From a virus, in the UHGV virus genome UHGV-0368904: a DNA stretch of 37,227 nt; one strand, 5' to 3'. The position numbers were made by a program, and so were the translations under genes. The notes below the pieces were generated by a model, which saw only the letters and a list, made by a program, of their open reading frames with translations, did not search any database and was not told the DNA's origin. Below, one piece after another: positions 22,665-37,227 of this stretch (its first letter is position 1; the number at the start of each line of letters is the position of its first letter).

Positions 22665-23771
22665 ATGAAAAAAACTGTTAAATTATTAGTAGCTGTCGGA
22701 ATGGGATTAAGTTTTATGTTACCAATTGGCGCAAATGCTTACCAAATTGAACAAGACCCAATCAATTTCGGTGGCTATTTCCCTGGATATGCAACTAACG
22801 AATTGATTGTATTGCATGAGTCAGGAAATGGAAATAATGTCGGTCCAAATAGTTTAGACAATGAAACGGCATATATGAAACGAAACTGGCAAAATGCGTA
22901 CGTTTCATATTTTGTTGGTTCTGGTGGTCGAGTGAAACAGTTAGCGCCAGCAGGACAAATTCAATGGGGCGCAGGACAAACAGCGAATGCAAAAGCCTAT
23001 GCTCAAATCGAATTAGCACGAACGAATAACAAAGAAACGTTCAAGAAAGACTATGCAGCCTATGTTAATTTGATTCGTGATTTAGCAACTCAAATCGGCG
23101 CAACATTTGATTTAGATGATGGTACAGGATACGGAATTGTATCGCACGATTGGGTATCTAAAAATTGGTGGGGCGATCATACAGATCCTTACGGTTATTT
23201 AGCAAGTTGGGGAATTAGTAAAGCACAATTAGCACAAGACTTACAAACTGGACTTCCAGAAGACGGTCATGATGTTATTGTAAACCCCGGCAAACCAAAC
23301 AAGCCTAAATATAAAGTAGGGCAGAACGTTCGCTTTACAACGATCTATAAAAATCCAGATGCGCCAATCGAGCAACATATCAATGCAAATACTTTATGGA
23401 CACAAGTTGGTACAATCACACAGAAATTAGACGGTCGTAAAAATCTATATCGGATTGAAAATAGCGGTAAATTATTAGGATACGCGAACGATGGCGATAT
23501 TGCGGAGCTTTGGGAAAATAGCAAACCTAAGCCAGCTAAAGTTTTTACTATCGGTGTAAATGAAGGGATTGTGTTACGTACTGGCTCACCTAGTCTGTAT
23601 GCGCCAGTATATGGTATCTGGCCAAAAGGTGCGCAATTTAGATATGATTCAGTCCATGTAGCTGACGGCTATGTTTGGTTAGGTGGAACAGATTCAAATG
23701 GAACAAGAATTTACATTCCTGTTGGTCCAAATGATGGTGATCCAAATAATACTTGGGGAACTGGTTATTAA
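22665..23771 (+). CDS. endolysin: N-acetylmuramoyl-L-alanine amidase (amidase_2/PGRP) with an N-terminal Sec signal peptide and two C-terminal SH3b-like wall-binding repeats
   Basis: The signal peptide is MKKTVKLLVAVGMGLSFMLPIGANA-YQ. The catalytic region aligns by eye with T7 lysozyme-type amidase_2 (IVLHESGN ... YFVGSGGRV ... IVSHDWVS). The C-terminus has W/Y/G-rich SH3_5-like repeats. Confidence 0.85.
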   Translation: MKKTVKLLVAVGMGLSFMLPIGANAYQIEQDPINFGGYFPGYATNELIVLHESGNGNNVGPNSLDNETAYMKRNWQNAYVSYFVGSGGRVKQLAPAGQIQWGAGQTANAKAYAQIELARTNNKETFKKDYAAYVNLIRDLATQIGATFDLDDGTGYGIVSHDWVSKNWWGDHTDPYGYLASWGISKAQLAQDLQTGLPEDGHDVIVNPGKPNKPKYKVGQNVRFTTIYKNPDAPIEQHINANTLWTQVGTITQKLDGRKNLYRIENSGKLLGYANDGDIAELWENSKPKPAKVFTIGVNEGIVLRTGSPSLYAPVYGIWPKGAQFRYDSVHVADGYVWLGGTDSNGTRIYIPVGPNDGDPNNTWGTGY

Positions 23772-23781
23772 GAAATAAGAA

Positions 23782-23818
23782 AATCCCTACTTCTCATTAC
23801 TAGAGGTAGGGATTTTTT
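23782..23818 (+). terminator. rho-independent terminator of the late/lysis operon
   Basis: AATCCCTACTTC ... GAGGTAGGGATT stem of about 13 bp (one G-U), followed by TTTTTT. Confidence 0.65.
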
Positions 23819-23863
23819 CAACGGTAAATTATGTTGAGATTTTTTTATTCTTATAGGTAAAAA

Positions 23864-24099
23864 TGACCATACTTTGACCATACACTTTAAGAAAATATAG
23901 AAACTATCAGAACATAGGATTTAATACAAATCCCTATTTTATAAGTGTTGAAGAAAATTAGGGATTGTTAGAAAAATTAAATTTTAAAGTATCAGTTTAT
24001 CCAGTAGCCAACTAGTGTAATAGCTCAAGCCTTTGTTTATCAAAGGTTTGGGCTTTTTTTGTTGGTTTGAAAAATATTTGACCATACTTTTGACCATAC
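23864..24099. repeat. candidate attP: four TTGACCATAC direct repeats (arm-type sites) flanking AATCCCTA/TAGGGATT inverted repeats (core candidates)
   Basis: TGACCATAC at 23864, 23875, 24079 and 24091. Inverted repeat AATCCCTA (23929-23936) / TAGGGATT (23959-23966) with a 22-nt spacer. A related imperfect copy TAGGATTT at 23915. The integrase gene is adjacent. Confidence 0.4.
24027..24060 (+). terminator. second plus-strand terminator-like hairpin inside the att region
   Basis: AAGCCTTTG tttat CAAAGGTTT stem followed by GGGC TTTTTTT. Confidence 0.35.
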
Positions 24100-24102
24100 T
24101 AG

Positions 24103-25257
24103 TTAAAAGCCGATGTATTTTGATAGTTTTTCGGTAGTTTTTTCTTTTCCATCATTTGTTAGATGTGTATAAGTATCTAAAGTTGTTTTTATGTTTGCAT
24201 GTCCTAATCGTTCCTGAACTTCTTTATGATCTGCACCAGCATAGTATAATAAAGATGCATGCGTGTGTCTAAATCCGTGAAGCCCAATGTTTGGTAAGTT
24301 AGCCTTTTTACGATAAATATTGTATCTATCTGTAATAGCTTGATTTATTGTAAATTCATTTTCTTCATTGGTGAAAATACGTGAGGGTTGTGTATAACCA
24401 AGTTTAAGAAGATATTTTTTTTGCTCTAATTTCCATTTTTTTAAGATAGTTATTGTTTTTGCATCTAATATTAGTGTTCTGTTTGATTTTTTTGTTTTTG
24501 GAGTATTTGATACATAATAATGGTCAGATTTAGCAATTGTTTTGTTGATTTGTAGTTCACCAGTTTTAATGTTTAAATCGTCCCAAGTAAGAGCTAACAA
24601 CTCCCCTATCCTACATCCACTAAAAGCTAATAATCTGAATAATGTATAATCTCTTATTGTAATGTAGGTACTTTCACTTTGTTCAATACTTTTTAAAAAT
24701 ATTTGAAGTTGATCTTTTGTATAGAATTTAATTTTCTTTTCTGATGTAATAATATCTTGATTTTTAGGAACTATTACATTAATCACTGGGTTTTGATTGG
24801 TAACCCCTATGTTAATAGCGAATTTGAAGACTTGATTCATATAATTTATAAAAAGGGGATATTGTTTTGAACTACCTTTTGAATGCCATGTATTCACGAT
24901 TTTCTGACAATAAGCAGTTGAAATTTTTGATATTTCAATTTTTCCAAATGAAGGTAGTATGTGTTTTCTGAAGATTATTTCTGTTCGAGAGTAGCTACTT
25001 TCTTTTACGGTATTTTTATAATTTTCTAGCCACATAAATGCTACTTCTTGGAATGTTATATTAGTGGAAGAGGGAATGCCATTTTTTTGAATTTCCATTT
25101 CTAACCTTGCTAATGCAATTTTAGCCTCTTTTTGAGTGCGAAATCCTCTCTTAGTTGTATACTTCTTTTTTCCAGTTAGCGGATCGGTACCAAGATATGT
25201 TTTGAAGTACCATGCTTTTTCACCATTCTTTTTTTTATATTGTTTTATCATTGCCAT
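24103..25257 (-). CDS. int: tyrosine site-specific integrase
   Basis: An N-terminal SAM-like/arm-binding domain. The C-terminal catalytic signature is HGFRHTHASLL ... LGHANIKTTLDTYTHL. AAGGAG Shine-Dalgarno. Confidence 0.9.
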   Translation of the reverse strand: MAMIKQYKKKNGEKAWYFKTYLGTDPLTGKKKYTTKRGFRTQKEAKIALARLEMEIQKNGIPSSTNITFQEVAFMWLENYKNTVKESSYSRTEIIFRKHILPSFGKIEISKISTAYCQKIVNTWHSKGSSKQYPLFINYMNQVFKFAINIGVTNQNPVINVIVPKNQDIITSEKKIKFYTKDQLQIFLKSIEQSESTYITIRDYTLFRLLAFSGCRIGELLALTWDDLNIKTGELQINKTIAKSDHYYVSNTPKTKKSNRTLILDAKTITILKKWKLEQKKYLLKLGYTQPSRIFTNEENEFTINQAITDRYNIYRKKANLPNIGLHGFRHTHASLLYYAGADHKEVQERLGHANIKTTLDTYTHLTNDGKEKTTEKLSKYIGF

Positions 25258-25322: not shown

Positions 25323-25790
25323 TTAATTATTTAAATTATTTACTAATTCATTTCCTGAAACTAATAAATAAATAAGGGTTGCTCCAGAATTTTCCTCACC
25401 ATCCCATTCGTAAATAGCTTTTATTCTGCCGTAATTGACATCATTACAGGTTACTATCCATCTATTTTTATTATTAATATAATTTAAAGCGACATTCCAT
25501 GTATCTTTTCCTCGATATTTTAGAGTGTATCCTCTATCTTCACAATCAAGTTGGGTATAAGATATGAGAGTTTGTTCCTGTTTTTCAGTAATAGAAGATA
25601 CTTCTTTTTCTTGGTTATCATATATTGAGTTAGTCTGATATGTTTCTTCCAAAATAACTGATGACGAGGTTTCTTGATTATTCTCAATTGACGAGCTTTG
25701 TCTGTCAGTCTCATATTCGTTTGAGGAATCACATGCCGCTAATACTAAACAAGATAGTAGCATTGAGAAAATAATATTTCTTTTTTTCAT
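25323..25790 (-). CDS. lipoprotein (lipobox LAAC), candidate superinfection-exclusion protein
   Basis: Signal peptide plus lipobox, MKKRNIIFSMLLSCLVLAAC. A Ser/Glu-rich linker followed by a roughly 90-aa C-terminal domain. AT-rich. It sits between int and the ImmA-like gene. Confidence 0.6.
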   Translation of the reverse strand: MKKRNIIFSMLLSCLVLAACDSSNEYETDRQSSSIENNQETSSSVILEETYQTNSIYDNQEKEVSSITEKQEQTLISYTQLDCEDRGYTLKYRGKDTWNVALNYINNKNRWIVTCNDVNYGRIKAIYEWDGEENSGATLIYLLVSGNELVNNLNN

Positions 25791-27165: not shown

Positions 27166-27450
27166 ATGCAGCTAAACATTCCTGATGAAATTGTTCAAAA
27201 CGAATTAGCAAATAACATTACTTTCATAGTATTAAAAGAAATTGAAAATCGTTTGAATTTATTGACTAAAACCATTGAATTACCGCCATATCCTAACAAA
27301 TCGCAAGTAAGAAAGATTTTAGAGATTGGCGATGAAAAATTGAATAATTGGATTTCAAAAGGTTTAAAAATTCAACAATGGAGTAATCAGGATATTCGGA
27401 TTGAACGATCTGAATTACAAAGATTTCTAAAAGAAACTTTTGAAATTTAA
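27166..27450 (+). CDS. excisionase-family (HTH_17/MerR-like) DNA-binding protein
   Basis: The C-terminal half (NKSQVRKILEIGDEKLNNWISKGLKIQQWSNQDIRIERSELQRFLKE) fits the Xis/HTH_17 pattern. Confidence 0.45.
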   Translation: MQLNIPDEIVQNELANNITFIVLKEIENRLNLLTKTIELPPYPNKSQVRKILEIGDEKLNNWISKGLKIQQWSNQDIRIERSELQRFLKETFEI

Positions 27451-35890: not shown

Positions 35891-36118
35891 GTGACTTATC
35901 CGAATTTTGAGAAAGATAGCTCTACCTGTGCCAATTGTGGTAACGCATTGTTTAATGATGGAGAATTTACTAATCAATCATATTTAACAATTAGAGACAA
36001 TTTTATGATAGTTAATTTTTTCCAGTTTGAAGATGGAACAGACAATATGTTTTGTGATGCAAATTGTCTTGCTAGTTTTCTTTCAGCGGAAGAAGTGGAA
36101 ATATTAGAAAGCGAGTGA
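35891..36118 (+). CDS. small Cys4 zinc-ribbon-like protein
   Basis: CANCGN ... FCDANC motifs. GTG start with GAAGGTAG Shine-Dalgarno. Confidence 0.4.
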   Translation: MTYPNFEKDSSTCANCGNALFNDGEFTNQSYLTIRDNFMIVNFFQFEDGTDNMFCDANCLASFLSAEEVEILESE

Positions 36119-36537
36119 AGAAGATGATTCCGAAGTTTAGAGCTTATTCAGTAGAAGAAAACATAATGTATTATCCTGATGAAGATAAAAATGTAGAATG
36201 GACTATTGATGATGATACAGGATTTATAGCGCCTCTTATCAATCTAGAAAATGGCATGTGGGGAATGATTGATAAATATGTTCTCATGCAATCAACAGGC
36301 TTGAAAGACAAGAACGGCGTTGAAATTTTTGAGGGTGATATTGTTCAGTATCGAGATGGAGAATATAGCTACCTAGGTATCGTTAAAAGAGACTGTTATC
36401 AATTTTTTATCGATGGAATAGAACCAGATGACAACTATGATTTTATTGATGTTTCTAATACTTTTGATGGAACTAGTTCTTTAGAAATACTCGGAAATAT
36501 TCACGAGAACCCAGAGCTATTGGAGGTCGCAGAATGA
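36115..36537 (+). CDS. YopX-family protein
   Basis: The pattern KFRAYS ... MQSTGLKDKNGVEIFEGDIV ... LEILGNIHENPELLE is YopX-like. Confidence 0.7.
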   Translation: MKKMIPKFRAYSVEENIMYYPDEDKNVEWTIDDDTGFIAPLINLENGMWGMIDKYVLMQSTGLKDKNGVEIFEGDIVQYRDGEYSYLGIVKRDCYQFFIDGIEPDDNYDFIDVSNTFDGTSSLEILGNIHENPELLEVAE

Positions 36538-36695
36538 GCTTTAAAGAAGCTTTCAAAGATGAATATATTGAAATTGACATAAGTAATAACGAAGAAGCAA
36601 AAGCTTTCTTTGAAGAAAATGTATATAAAAGGGAAAGAGAAATATTAAAGAAGTCAGAGGGCTTGTTTAAATGTATTGAGGAGGAAGCGGAATGA
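36534..36695 (+). CDS. small acidic hypothetical protein (53 aa, not in the ORF track)
   Basis: The ATG overlaps the upstream stop (ATGA) and its own stop overlaps the next start, which suggests translational coupling. Confidence 0.3.
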   Translation: MSFKEAFKDEYIEIDISNNEEAKAFFEENVYKREREILKKSEGLFKCIEEEAE

Positions 36696-36952
36696 GTTAT
36701 GAAAATTACAAAAATTGTGTTGAAGAGGTAAAAGACAAGAACGGTAAAGTAATTAAATATCATGACGTTGTTCGAACGTTACGAGGTGAAATTTTATTAG
36801 TCGGTTTTGGAGTAAATCACCATCATAAAACAAAAGGTTTGAATGCCTTTAATAATTTTATTGGTGCTCATGATTGGTTAGATGTTTACCCAGATGGAGA
36901 ATTAGAAATCCTAGGAAATGTTGACTTTTTTGGGAGGGGCAGCGATGAATAA
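36692..36952 (+). CDS. hypothetical protein with a YopX C-terminal-like motif (LEILGNVDF)
   Basis: ORF with GAGGAGGAAG Shine-Dalgarno. Confidence 0.45.
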   Translation: MSYENYKNCVEEVKDKNGKVIKYHDVVRTLRGEILLVGFGVNHHHKTKGLNAFNNFIGAHDWLDVYPDGELEILGNVDFFGRGSDE

Positions 36953-37227
36953 ACAAGAAAAAGAAGATTTAATTCAAGCGCTCTATGATATCGGAGGCTG
37001 CGATGCAGAAGATGAATGGTCAAGAGGTTATGACGATGGAGTAAATGCAGCAATTGAGGTCATAAAAGAACTCAAAGTACAGGGAAAAGTCATATTTTCA
37101 CATGAAGAGAAATTTGTGGCAGATTGGCTTGATGGTTTAAGAGGTCAAATCAGTAATGTTAAGTTAAATTCTGGTGCTGTTTTCATGACGTTCATCGGCA
37201 GACAGTTAGAGCGGTACTATGATGAAG
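36945..37227 (+). CDS. hypothetical protein, 3'-truncated by the window edge
   Basis: GGGAGGGG Shine-Dalgarno then ATG at 36945. The ORF stays open to the end of the window. Confidence 0.4.
   Translation, partial: MNKQEKEDLIQALYDIGGCDAEDEWSRGYDDGVNAAIEVIKELKVQGKVIFSHEEKFVADWLDGLRGQISNVKLNSGAVFMTFIGRQLERYYDE

What the first reader, a model, noticed from the sequence alone, without database searches (positions are those of the whole stretch)
23772..24102. attP candidate with four TTGACCATAC arm-type repeats and nested AATCCCTA/TAGGGATT inverted repeats; int directly follows the lysin
The 330-bp gap between the lysin terminator and the integrase stop contains two pairs of the direct repeat TTGACCATAC, at 23864/23875 and 24079/24091, with 11-12 bp phasing and about 200 bp apart. 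Between them are inverted repeats of AATCCCTA/TAGGGATT (23915-23936 and 23959-23966). The same 8-mer forms the arms of the lysin terminator (23782-23814). A second plus-strand terminator lies at 24027-24060. This is the architecture expected of an attP, with arm sites flanking a core. It also implies the sequence derives from a circular or virion genome rather than an integrated prophage, since attP is intact between the lysis genes and int.
Basis: partly seen in the sequence, partly recalled or inferred. Interest (0 to 1): 0.55.

Follow-up and report, generated by a model that had tools for sequence, protein, structure and literature searches.

The report
Phage attP targeting the rpmA gene end
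This 238-bp stretch is the attachment site (attP) that a common Enterococcus faecalis temperate phage uses to insert into the last codons of the ribosomal protein L27 gene; it is a clear but ordinary example of a well-known kind of site.

Summary
TGACCATAC occurs four times exactly (23864, 23875, 24079, 24091) and nowhere else in the window (0.15 expected, 0/100 shuffles).

The interpretation as attP is correct, and the site can now be mapped:
- The convergent ORF 24103-25257(-) is a tyrosine integrase with an N-terminal arm-binding domain.
- The exact same integrase sits in many E. faecalis chromosomes, 87 nt from the stop of rpmA (L27).
- Comparing attP with attL and attR from one genome, and with empty attB sites, gives a 22-bp common core: AAGTATCAGTTTATCCAGTAGC, window 23987-24008.
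- The core lies in the last codons of rpmA.
- The phage re-supplies the L27 C-terminus (VSVYPVAN*). It also carries a structurally conserved terminator (24022-24061), best read as a replacement for the displaced rpmA terminator.
- Both arm pairs are (near-)invariant in 14 diverged attPs, and they track the integrase N-domain rather than the catalytic part.
- The AATCCCTA inverted repeat is not conserved and does not fold significantly.
- The window is one circularly permuted phage genome.

The layout matches that of phage mv4. Verdict: a new member of a known kind, of low to moderate interest.

The parts
22665..23771 (+). Endolysin (Amidase_2 + SH3_5). It is the last late gene and borders the P arm. 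In lysogens it lies next to attR.
   Evidence: Pfam. The exact protein is followed by the P arm, the core and psiE in 8 of 9 sampled places.
23778..23818 (+). Intrinsic terminator of the lysis/late operon. Its arms contain AATCCCTA/TAGGGATT.
   Evidence: Fold dG -21.7, z -6.5. It is identical in attR of lysogens.
23863..23873 (+). P1 arm-type site, ATGACCATACT.
   Evidence: The 9-mer is invariant in 12 of the 13 attPs that cover it (L057 has one mismatch; L058 is cut).
23874..23884 (+). P2 arm-type site, TTGACCATACA, 11-nt phasing with P1.
   Evidence: The pair stays with the lysin side (attR) in lysogens.
23885..23986 (.). P-arm spacer, 22% G+C. It contains the non-conserved inverted repeat AATCCCTA (23929-23936) / TAGGGATT (23959-23966). 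It is the likely place for excisionase or host-factor sites, but none was identified.
   Evidence: Mean pairwise identity 0.56 among 14 attPs. The inverted repeat is degraded in the closest relatives (AATGCCTA; AACGCCTA/TAGAAGTT). Fold z -1.7.
23987..24008 (+). Common core AAGTATCAGTTTATCCAGTAGC, identical in attP, attB, attL and attR. Strand exchange must occur inside it. Similarity to attB continues to 24014 with one mismatch at 24009 (C in phage, T in host).
   Evidence: Three-way alignment A2, 10 attL and 8 attR junctions, and empty attB in 8 metagenome contigs.
23986..24015 (+). Phage-borne copy of the last nine codons and stop of rpmA (K V S V Y P V A N *). After integration it completes the host L27 gene with no amino-acid change (GCT to GCC is synonymous; TAA becomes TAG).
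   Evidence: Translation. Host L27 ends ...KKQVSVYPVAN. L27 equivalog TIGR00062 scores 130 bits. rpmA is called 87 nt from int in 9 of 10 lysogen places.
24022..24061 (+). Rho-independent terminator (14-bp stem, T-run) oriented with rpmA. It takes the place of the host rpmA terminator, which ends up in attR beyond the prophage.
   Evidence: dG -20.6, z -5.7; no T-run on the minus strand. It is conserved in structure: 5 of 12 pairs show compensatory changes across 9 relatives. The host's own terminator is seen after attR and in attB.
24078..24088 (+). P'1 arm-type site, TTGACCATACT.
   Evidence: Invariant in all 14 attPs. It stays with int (attL) in lysogens.
24090..24100 (+). P'2 arm-type site, TTGACCATACT, 12-nt phasing with P'1. 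It ends 2 nt before the int stop codon.
   Evidence: The same placement is seen in 28 viral contigs.
24103..25257 (-). Heterobivalent tyrosine integrase, 384 aa: Arm-DNA-bind_4 N-domain, SAM-like core-binding domain and catalytic domain.
   Evidence: Pfam PF14657 (E 1e-15), PF14659 and PF00589. Catalytic-type motifs GCR, HGFRH, LGH and DTY are present. The exact protein is named 'site-specific integrase [Enterococcus faecalis]' and was seen on 834 contigs.
27166..27450 (+). Candidate excisionase / directionality factor, 94 aa, just after the cro-like gene. Weak assignment.
   Evidence: HTH_17 (excisionase-type HTH) E 2.9e-4, 21.5 bits, below the 27-bit cutoff. phrog_668 'HTH DNA binding protein' E 6e-19.

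Best explanation
Window 23863-24100 is the complete attP of a temperate Enterococcus faecalis siphophage. Its tyrosine integrase (24103-25257, minus strand) has two DNA-binding specificities.

Proposed mechanism:
- The N-terminal arm-binding domain is inferred to bind the four 11-bp direct repeats TTGACCATACT. P1-P2 sit at the left end and P'1-P'2 at the right end, 2 nt from the int stop.
- The core-binding and catalytic domains are inferred to act on the 22-bp core AAGTATCAGTTTATCCAGTAGC (23987-24008).
- The core is identical to the last codons of the host rpmA gene (ribosomal protein L27).
- Recombination between attP and attB inserts the phage between rpmA and psiE. This gives attL (rpmA-core-terminator-P'1P'2-int) and attR (lysin-P1P2-spacer-core-host terminator-psiE).
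- The phage half of attL restores the L27 C-terminus exactly and supplies a new intrinsic terminator (24022-24061) for the rplU-prp-rpmA operon.
- Strand exchange lies left of 24009, probably in the left third of the core.
- Excision presumably needs a directionality factor. The ORF at 27166-27450 is a weak candidate.

Shown: site identity, junctions, core limits, gene restoration and conservation.
Inferred: which protein binds which site, the exact overlap region, and the function of the terminator.
For: 1. Integrase. Int carries Arm-DNA-bind_4, a SAM-like domain and the catalytic domain.

2. Lysogens.
- The exact Int protein was looked up in assemblies. In 9 of 10 sampled chromosomal places it lies 87 nt from convergent rpmA-prp-rplU.
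- The exact lysin is followed by psiE in 8 of 9 places.
- The source names the Int as an E. faecalis integrase.

3. Core mapping.
- attL (L017) and attR (L025) from one genome (CP122480.1), aligned with the window, share exactly 23987-24008.
- Phage-type C at 24009 is in attL and host-type T is in attR.
- All 8 attR junctions carry the host T and TAA.

4. Empty site. The predicted attB (host left flank + core + host right flank, 45 nt) is found exactly in 8 metagenome contigs. One of them (L066) shows rplU-prp-rpmA-terminator-psiE. rpmA matches the L27 equivalog.

5. Arm-site conservation.
- Across 14 distinct attPs with Ints 72-100% identical, P'1P'2 has pairwise identity 1.00 and P1P2 has 0.93.
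- The flanks score 0.42-0.56.
- The 11/12-nt phasing is conserved.

6. Arm motif tracks the Int N-domain.
- Ints next to the same arm pair but only 42-44% identical beyond residue 65 keep 62-85% identity in residues 1-65. They have other cores, for example the rplL 3' end.
- Ints with 50-58% N-domain identity have different tandem 9-mers at the same place.

7. Terminator. Significant fold on the rpmA strand, and 5 of 12 pairs show compensatory changes.

8. Known precedent. The same layout was established experimentally for phage mv4: two pairs of adjacent 11-bp direct repeats at the ends of a roughly 215-bp attP, and a 21-bp core with a 7-bp overlap (bioRxiv 10.1101/2023.11.06.565760).
Against: - There is no binding or recombination experiment. 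Assigning the repeats to the Int N-domain rests on position, conservation and co-variation with the domain.
- No convincing inverted core-type sites or 7-bp overlap could be read from the sequence. Two candidate registers exist.
- The excisionase candidate is below the Pfam threshold.
- Two places (L021, L054) carry the same int-P'-core joined to other DNA. The enzyme therefore also acts, or has acted, at other sites.
- The 8 attB hits were found with a pattern that already fixed the host-type T. They do not independently prove that base.
Confidence: 0.93

Rival explanations
1. The attP core, or crossover site, is the AATCCCTA/TAGGGATT inverted repeat region (about 23915-23966), as the first reader's layout and proposed BLAST segment imply.
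For: The inverted repeat exists and lies between the arm pairs. The 8-mer count is somewhat above chance: 4 found against 0.88 expected.
Against: - In lysogens this region stays entirely on the phage side of attR. Homology to the host starts only at 23987.
- The empty attB contains no such sequence.
- The inverted repeat is lost without compensation in close relatives: AATGCCTA in L025, L032 and L056, and AACGCCTA/TAGAAGTT in L039.
- The fold is not significant (z -1.7).
Confidence: 0.01
2. The TGACCATAC repeats are not integrase arm sites. They would instead bind another protein (excisionase, repressor, host factor) or act as promoter -35-like elements (TTGACC).
For: - TTGAC resembles a -35 hexamer.
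- No binding data exist.
- Excisionases also bind tandem direct repeats.
Against: - The pairs sit at both extremes of attP, on either side of the core, as in mv4. Directionality factors usually bind one arm next to the core; this point is from my general knowledge of lambda and L5 and was not tested here.
- The promoter scan does not flag them.
- The motif follows the Int N-domain across Ints whose other domains and cores differ. It changes when the N-domain diverges.
- P'2 abuts the int stop in every relative.
Confidence: 0.05
3. The window is not a free phage genome. It is the internal junction of a tandem double lysogen, which would also carry an intact attP between lysin and int.
For: - Tandem or adjacent prophages do occur at this site, as the L054 remnant suggests.
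- The origin of the window is not given.
Against: - The window contains no host DNA and no duplicated phage sequence.
- Its length (37.2 kb) is about one genome unit. The prophage in CP122480.1 is about 36.8 kb, from the coordinates.
- Its ends are contiguous in related prophages, as expected for one circularly permuted unit.
- Either way the site is still attP.
Confidence: 0.05

Closest known systems
Lactobacillus phage mv4 Int/attP/attB (heterobivalent tyrosine recombinase; bioRxiv 10.1101/2023.11.06.565760)
   Same: - attP of a little over 200 bp, with two pairs of adjacent 11-bp arm sites in direct repeat, one pair at each end.
- A short core in the 3' end of a host gene.
- Firmicute host.
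- int next to attP (one search compared).
   Different: - mv4 targets tRNA-Ser, whereas this phage targets the protein gene rpmA.
- Here the arm spacing is 11 and 12 nt, and a conserved terminator sits in the P' arm.
- Sequence relatedness of the two integrases and of their arm motifs was not tested.
- For mv4 the 7-bp overlap and the core-binding sites are mapped experimentally. Here they are not.
Phage lambda Int/attP (POP'), the founding heterobivalent system
   Same: - A roughly 240-bp attP with arm-type sites distinct from the core.
- Int with an N-terminal arm-binding domain plus core-binding and catalytic domains.
- attL and attR hybrids.
- Need for a directionality factor. These points come from general knowledge.
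   Different: - Lambda has five arm sites (P1, P2, P'1-3) and mapped IHF, Xis and Fis sites.
- Its attB is intergenic (gal-bio).
- Its Int has a different arm-domain Pfam family from PF14657.
- No IHF-type sites were identified here.
Enterococcus phage phiEf11 attP/attB in ffs (Sci Rep 2025, PMC12540744)
   Same: - E. faecalis temperate siphophage.
- attP lies in the lysin-int intergenic region.
- The core is about 74 nt from the int terminus.
- Direct repeats in the arms are proposed as Int sites.
   Different: - Different core (27 nt, inside the 4.5S RNA gene) and different repeats.
- The window shares only mosaic early/late gene segments with phiEf11.
- The lysin-int segment of the window has no megablast match in the phage collection.
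Enterococcus phages VEsP-1, EH-TP1 and vB_ElaS_B1578 (GenBank MZ333456, PQ571301, PQ283533)
   Same: - Integrases 72-79% identical at the protein level.
- Identical arm pairs, homologous rpmA-type core and terminator.
   Different: - Different phages and hosts (E. hirae and other Enterococcus species).
- Their cores follow the rpmA sequence of those hosts (AAGTGTCTG...).
- Their records annotate no att site.

Membership tests
attP of a heterobivalent (lambda/mv4-type) tyrosine integrase | An adjacent tyrosine recombinase gene with a catalytic domain | tested here: met
   PF00589 E 1e-24. The R...HxxR...H...Y-type motifs GCR(216), HGFRH(327-331), LGH and DTY are present.
attP of a heterobivalent (lambda/mv4-type) tyrosine integrase | The integrase has a separate N-terminal arm-binding domain | tested here: met
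   PF14657 Arm-DNA-bind_4, residues 16-59, E 1.1e-15, 57 bits against a cutoff of 22.3.
attP of a heterobivalent (lambda/mv4-type) tyrosine integrase | Repeated arm-type sites on both sides of the core, with a sequence different from the core | tested here: met
   Four direct TTGACCATACT sites lie 102 nt left and 69 nt right of the core. They are (near-)invariant in 14 attPs.
attP of a heterobivalent (lambda/mv4-type) tyrosine integrase | The integrase N-domain physically binds the arm sites | not testable with these tools
   Indirect support only: the motif co-varies with the N-domain and not with the rest of Int.
attP of a heterobivalent (lambda/mv4-type) tyrosine integrase | A core shared with a bacterial attB, with hybrid attL and attR at prophage ends | tested here: met
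   The 22-bp core is identical in attP, attL, attR and empty attB.
attP of a heterobivalent (lambda/mv4-type) tyrosine integrase | Inverted core-type sites flanking a 6-8 bp overlap region | tested here: inconclusive
   - Only weak candidates were found by eye on the sequences: attB AAAAAAC / AAGTATCA / GTTTATC, or attP TAAA / GTATCAG / TTTA.
- The exchange is bounded to 23987-24008.
- It is hinted to lie near the left end.
attP of a heterobivalent (lambda/mv4-type) tyrosine integrase | A phage-encoded excisionase / directionality factor | tested here: inconclusive
   ORF 27166-27450 matches HTH_17 at E 2.9e-4, below the cutoff, and phrog_668. There is no NCBIfam hit.
mv4-type attP architecture | Two pairs of adjacent 11-bp arm sites in direct repeat, at the two ends of an attP of a little over 200 bp | tested here: met
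   Sites at 23863-23884 and 24078-24100, spanning 238 bp, compared with the description.
mv4-type attP architecture | The integrase is homologous to mv4 Int | not tested
Rho-independent terminator (24022-24061) | A G+C-rich hairpin followed by a U-run, conserved in structure | tested here: met
   14-bp stem plus T7 run. dG -20.6, z -5.7. 5 of 12 pairs show compensatory changes, and the T-run is invariant.
Functional palindrome / hairpin (AATCCCTA...TAGGGATT, 23929-23966) | The inverted repeat is maintained in relatives, by conservation or compensatory change | tested here: not met
   The left arm mutates without compensation in L025, L032, L056 and L039. The repeat is absent in more distant attPs. 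Fold z -1.7.

The most novel reading that the evidence does not exclude
The TTGACCATACT arm module (arm sites plus the Int N-domain) is a portable cassette shared by a family of Enterococcus phage integrases. Their core-binding and catalytic parts have diverged to at least three specificities, all at the 3' ends of highly expressed ribosomal-protein genes:
- rpmA (L27), in the window and its relatives.
- rplL (L7/L12), in L042 and probably L044/L057.
- A gene ending ...KKARKASQFSKR*, probably rpsI (S9), in L006/L038.

Each member carries a structurally conserved replacement terminator between the core and P'1. A further speculative step is that read-through from the ribosomal operon into the convergent int gene couples prophage excision or int expression to growth rate.
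Probability: 0.4. Interest if true: 0.45.

Novelty: new member of a known kind. Interest (0 to 1): 0.3.

Why it matters
- It gives base-level att coordinates (attP, attB, attL, attR) for one of the commonest E. faecalis prophage integrases. The exact protein is on 834 contigs in the collection searched. This helps prophage border calling and strain typing.
- It would help in building integration vectors that insert at a neutral, conserved site (the rpmA-psiE junction) without damaging L27.
- It is a natural second example, in a Firmicute, of the mv4-type 'two pairs of arm sites' layout.
- The relatives suggest that arm modules and core specificities are recombined in nature, which bears on efforts to reprogram integrases.
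- None of this changes current understanding of site-specific recombination.

Tried and rejected
- Megablast of the lysin-attP-int segment against the phage collection found nothing. Only the distant mode found relatives.
- The genome-contig scan returned only integrases at 71% identity or less, in other Enterococcus species. The exact-protein look-up was what found the real lysogens.
- Five literature searches for rpmA or L27 as a prophage attB in Enterococcus found no report, and the phiEf11 att-site paper does not mention them either. The library lacks most subscription papers, so this is not proof of novelty.
- The AATCCCTA inverted repeat was tested as a functional element and rejected for lack of conservation and fold.
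- Reading the repeats as promoters was rejected.
- L024, which has the same lysin but a different downstream sequence, is simply another phage sharing the lysin module.
- The first attempt to test circularity, with ORF 36115-36537, failed because that product is not on record. ORF 36692-36952 worked.
- Core-type inverted repeats could not be assigned convincingly by eye.
- The intact version of the L021 flank was not present in any fetched locus.

Full report
**1. The observation**

The exact 9-mer TGACCATAC occurs four times on the + strand, at 23864, 23875, 24079 and 24091. It occurs nowhere else in the 37,227 bases. Dinucleotide shuffles expect 0.15 copies, and 0 of 100 reach four.

Read as 11-mers, the sites are:
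- ATGACCATACT (23863-23873)
- TTGACCATACA (23874-23884)
- TTGACCATACT (24078-24088)
- TTGACCATACT (24090-24100)

The phasing is 11 and 12 nt, and the pairs are 204 nt apart.

Both terminators are real hairpins with T-runs. The lysin terminator has dG -21.7 and z -6.5. The second one (24022-24054 plus T-run) has dG -20.6 and z -5.7 on the + strand, and has no T-run on the minus strand. The 23918-23978 inverted repeat does not fold better than shuffles (z -1.7).

**2. Context**

ORF 22665-23771(+) is an Amidase_2/SH3_5 endolysin, preceded by a BhlA holin. ORF 24103-25257(-) is a tyrosine integrase with Arm-DNA-bind_4 (PF14657, E 1e-15), SAM-like and catalytic domains. Upstream of it, on the same strand, are a lipoprotein-like ORF, an ImmA/IrrE protease and an HTH repressor. 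A cro-like gene and an anti-repressor follow on the other strand. The rest of the window holds replication, packaging, head, tail and lysis genes. This is a whole temperate siphophage genome.

**3. Lysogens, and where the core is**

The exact Int protein is named 'site-specific integrase [Enterococcus faecalis]' and is on 834 contigs of the collection.
- In 9 of 10 sampled chromosomal places, int is followed after 87 nt by convergent rpmA (L27), prp and rplU.
- The exact lysin is followed by psiE in 8 of 9 places.
- Genome CP122480.1 supplied both ends of one prophage, about 36.8 kb apart.

Aligning that attL and attR with the window shows that all three share exactly AAGTATCAGTTTATCCAGTAGC, window 23987-24008. 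To the left, attL is host sequence (…CGCGACAAAAAAC) and attR is phage. To the right, attL is phage and attR is host.

At 24009 the phage has C and the host has T. attL of that prophage carries C and attR carries T, so exchange occurred left of 24009. All eight rpmA-type attR junctions carry host T and TAA.

The predicted empty site (host left flank + core + host right flank, 45 nt) was found exactly in eight metagenome contigs. Locus L066 reads rplU-prp-rpmA-terminator-psiE with no phage. The gene matches the L27 equivalog at 130 bits against a cutoff of 90.

It is right of the AATCCCTA/TAGGGATT repeat, in the last codons of an rpmA reading frame carried by the phage.

**4. What the phage carries into the host gene**

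Window 23986-24015 reads K V S V Y P V A N stop. This is identical to the C-terminus of host L27. The only differences from attB are a synonymous GCT to GCC change and TAA to TAG. L27 is therefore unchanged by integration.

The host's own rpmA terminator (AAAAAGCTGAATC…GATTCAGCTTTTTTT) is displaced to the far side of the prophage, after attR. In attL, the phage hairpin 24022-24054 plus T-run follows the restored stop by 6 nt and has the orientation of rpmA.

In nine diverged relatives this hairpin is kept. Five of 12 pairs show compensatory double changes, and the T-run is invariant. I infer that it is a replacement terminator for the rplU-prp-rpmA operon. It would also shield the convergent int gene from that strong transcription. 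The structure and its conservation are shown; the function is inferred.

**5. The arm sites**

Distant BLAST found Enterococcus phages VEsP-1, EH-TP1 and vB_ElaS_B1578. Their similarity runs from the P1 site through int. A scan of viral contigs for the P' pair gave 28 loci. Every one with enough upstream sequence and an intact site has the second pair 190-226 nt upstream.

Mean pairwise identity across 14 distinct attPs:

| Segment | Identity |
|---|---|
| P'1P'2 | 1.00 |
| P1P2 | 0.93 |
| Core | 0.79 |
| Terminator stem-loop | 0.72 |
| P-arm spacer | 0.56 |
| Outer flanks | 0.42-0.44 |

The 11-nt and 12-nt spacings are kept in all of them. In lysogens the pairs separate as expected: P' stays with int and P stays with the lysin.

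The motif follows the integrase N-domain, not the rest of the protein.
- Ints beside the same P' pair but only 42-44% identical after residue 65 (L033, L036, L038/L006, L042, L044) retain 62-85% identity in residues 1-65.
- Ints with 50-58% N-domain identity (L003, L004, L005) have different tandem 9-mers at the same position, with 12-nt phasing: GTATTCAA, TGGTAGTCA and TGGTRTTCAA.

This is the pattern expected if the N-domain reads the repeats. Binding itself is not shown.

**6. The inverted repeat**

The AATCCCTA/TAGGGATT pair at 23929/23959 is exact in the window and in lysogens with an identical P arm. The closest variant attPs have AATGCCTA (L025, L032, L056) or AACGCCTA/TAGAAGTT (L039). 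More distant ones have nothing comparable, and no compensatory change is seen. Together with the weak fold, I treat it as not supported as a functional element.

The AT-rich spacer (22% G+C) is where excisionase or host-factor sites would be expected, but I could not identify any. A weak excisionase candidate is ORF 27166-27450, which matches HTH_17 at E 2.9e-4 (below threshold) and phrog_668.

**7. Position of strand exchange**

The exchange is bounded by 23987 (start of identity) and 24008.

Two hints point to the left part.
- Phages of other Enterococcus hosts match their hosts' synonymous differences at core positions 5 and 8 (AAGTGTCTG…). The mismatch at position 23 is tolerated in the window phage.
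- In L054, a Sak recombinase gene of a neighbouring prophage is truncated and fused exactly at the left edge of the core. The intact gene (L043) reads GTAGAAGTCTCTGTAC there, which is a pseudo-core. This looks like an Int-mediated event with exchange within or just after AAGT.

This is an inference. Core-type inverted repeats could not be assigned with confidence.

**8. Free phage or prophage**

The window has no host DNA and no terminal repeat, and it is about one genome unit long. Its last 600 and first 900 bases, joined, align without a break to E. faecalis prophages at 99.4% over 891 nt (L069). The window is therefore one circularly permuted genome cut inside a DUF1642 gene. An internal junction of a tandem lysogen cannot be strictly excluded.

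**9. Comparison with known systems, and novelty**

The layout is that of heterobivalent tyrosine integrases. It most closely matches phage mv4. There, experiments established a roughly 215-bp attP with two pairs of adjacent 11-bp direct-repeat arm sites at its ends, and a 21-bp core with a 7-bp overlap. phiEf11, another E. faecalis phage, has its attP in the same genomic position but targets ffs with unrelated sequences.

I found no paper describing rpmA as an Enterococcus prophage attB. The library is incomplete, and large prophage-border catalogues may list it. The GenBank records of the related phages annotate no att site.

I classify the finding as a new member of a known kind. It is a well-resolved, useful annotation, but mechanistically ordinary.

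The mildly novel aspect is that the same arm module is combined with integrases of other core specificities. These also target the 3' ends of ribosomal-protein genes: rplL, confirmed by Pfam, and a gene ending KKARKASQFSKR. From memory, that ending resembles the S9 C-terminus; the fragment is too short for a family search here. Each carries the conserved terminator.

Noticed in passing
L054 5957-6240 (IMGVR_UViG_2565956765_000003): A Sak single-strand-annealing protein gene (PF06378) from a neighbouring prophage's early module is truncated and fused exactly at the left edge of the rpmA-type core. It is followed by the window-type P' arm and int. The intact homologue (L043 6353-6390) has the pseudo-core AAGTCTCTGT at that point. 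This suggests an Int-mediated deletion or secondary-site event.
   Followed up: partly
L021 4250-4645 (LR962053.1): The same int-P'-terminator-core is joined, at the same core edge (…CTAAAC|AAGTATCAG), to the interior of a pgpA/yutG-like gene instead of rpmA. This could be a secondary integration site or a rearrangement. The other junction and the intact gene were not available.
   Followed up: partly
L042 (attL, first 174 nt); L044 and L057 (attP); L006/L038: The identical arm pair TTGACCATACTTTTGACCATAC sits next to integrases only 45-52% identical overall. Their cores are the 3' end of rplL (L042, Pfam Ribosomal_L12 E 4e-14; L044/L057 end ...ITVK*) and of a gene ending KKARKASQFSKR*. From memory, the latter resembles the ribosomal protein S9 C-terminus. 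The arm module is shared and the core specificity is swapped.
   Followed up: partly
L003 11134-11170; L004 11164-11200; L005 11074-11330: More distant integrases (35-44% identity) have different tandem 9-mers with 12-nt phasing directly after the int stop: GTATTCAA x2, TGGTAGTCA x2 and TGGTRTTCAA x2. L005 appears, by eye, to lie next to a tRNA gene. The 'pair of arm sites abutting int' layout is therefore general in this integrase family.
   Followed up: partly
window 36945-37227 joined to 1-290: The window ends fall inside a DUF1642-family gene and are contiguous in E. faecalis prophages (L069, L071). The window is one circularly permuted genome with an arbitrary cut, not a natural cos or pac end.
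   Followed up: yes
window 25323-25790 (-): A 155-aa ORF lies between int and the ImmA/repressor pair. It has a lipoprotein-type signal (MKKRNIIFSMLLSCLVLAAC) and no Pfam family. It may be a prophage-expressed surface or superinfection-exclusion protein.
   Followed up: no
phage collection hit H3, PQ554527.1: 'Acinetobacter phage D2SVT' (host A. baumannii) gives exactly the same hit statistics to this Enterococcus integrase/attP region as Enterococcus phage vB_ElaS_B1578. The host label of that record looks doubtful.
   Followed up: no
L043 1-170 (IMGVR_UViG_3300029167_000080): A VEsP-1-like Int (78% identity) and P' pair are preceded by a different hairpin, with no rpmA-type core. This may be another core variant or a recombinant.
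   Followed up: no
window 23901-23910, 23986-23995 and 24118-24129(-): The decamer AAASTATCAG, which overlaps the left end of the core, recurs in the P arm (AAACTATCAG, 23901). It also occurs inverted inside the 3' end of int (24118-24129, 92% complementary to 23901-23912). These may be extra core-type-like sites or chance.
   Followed up: no
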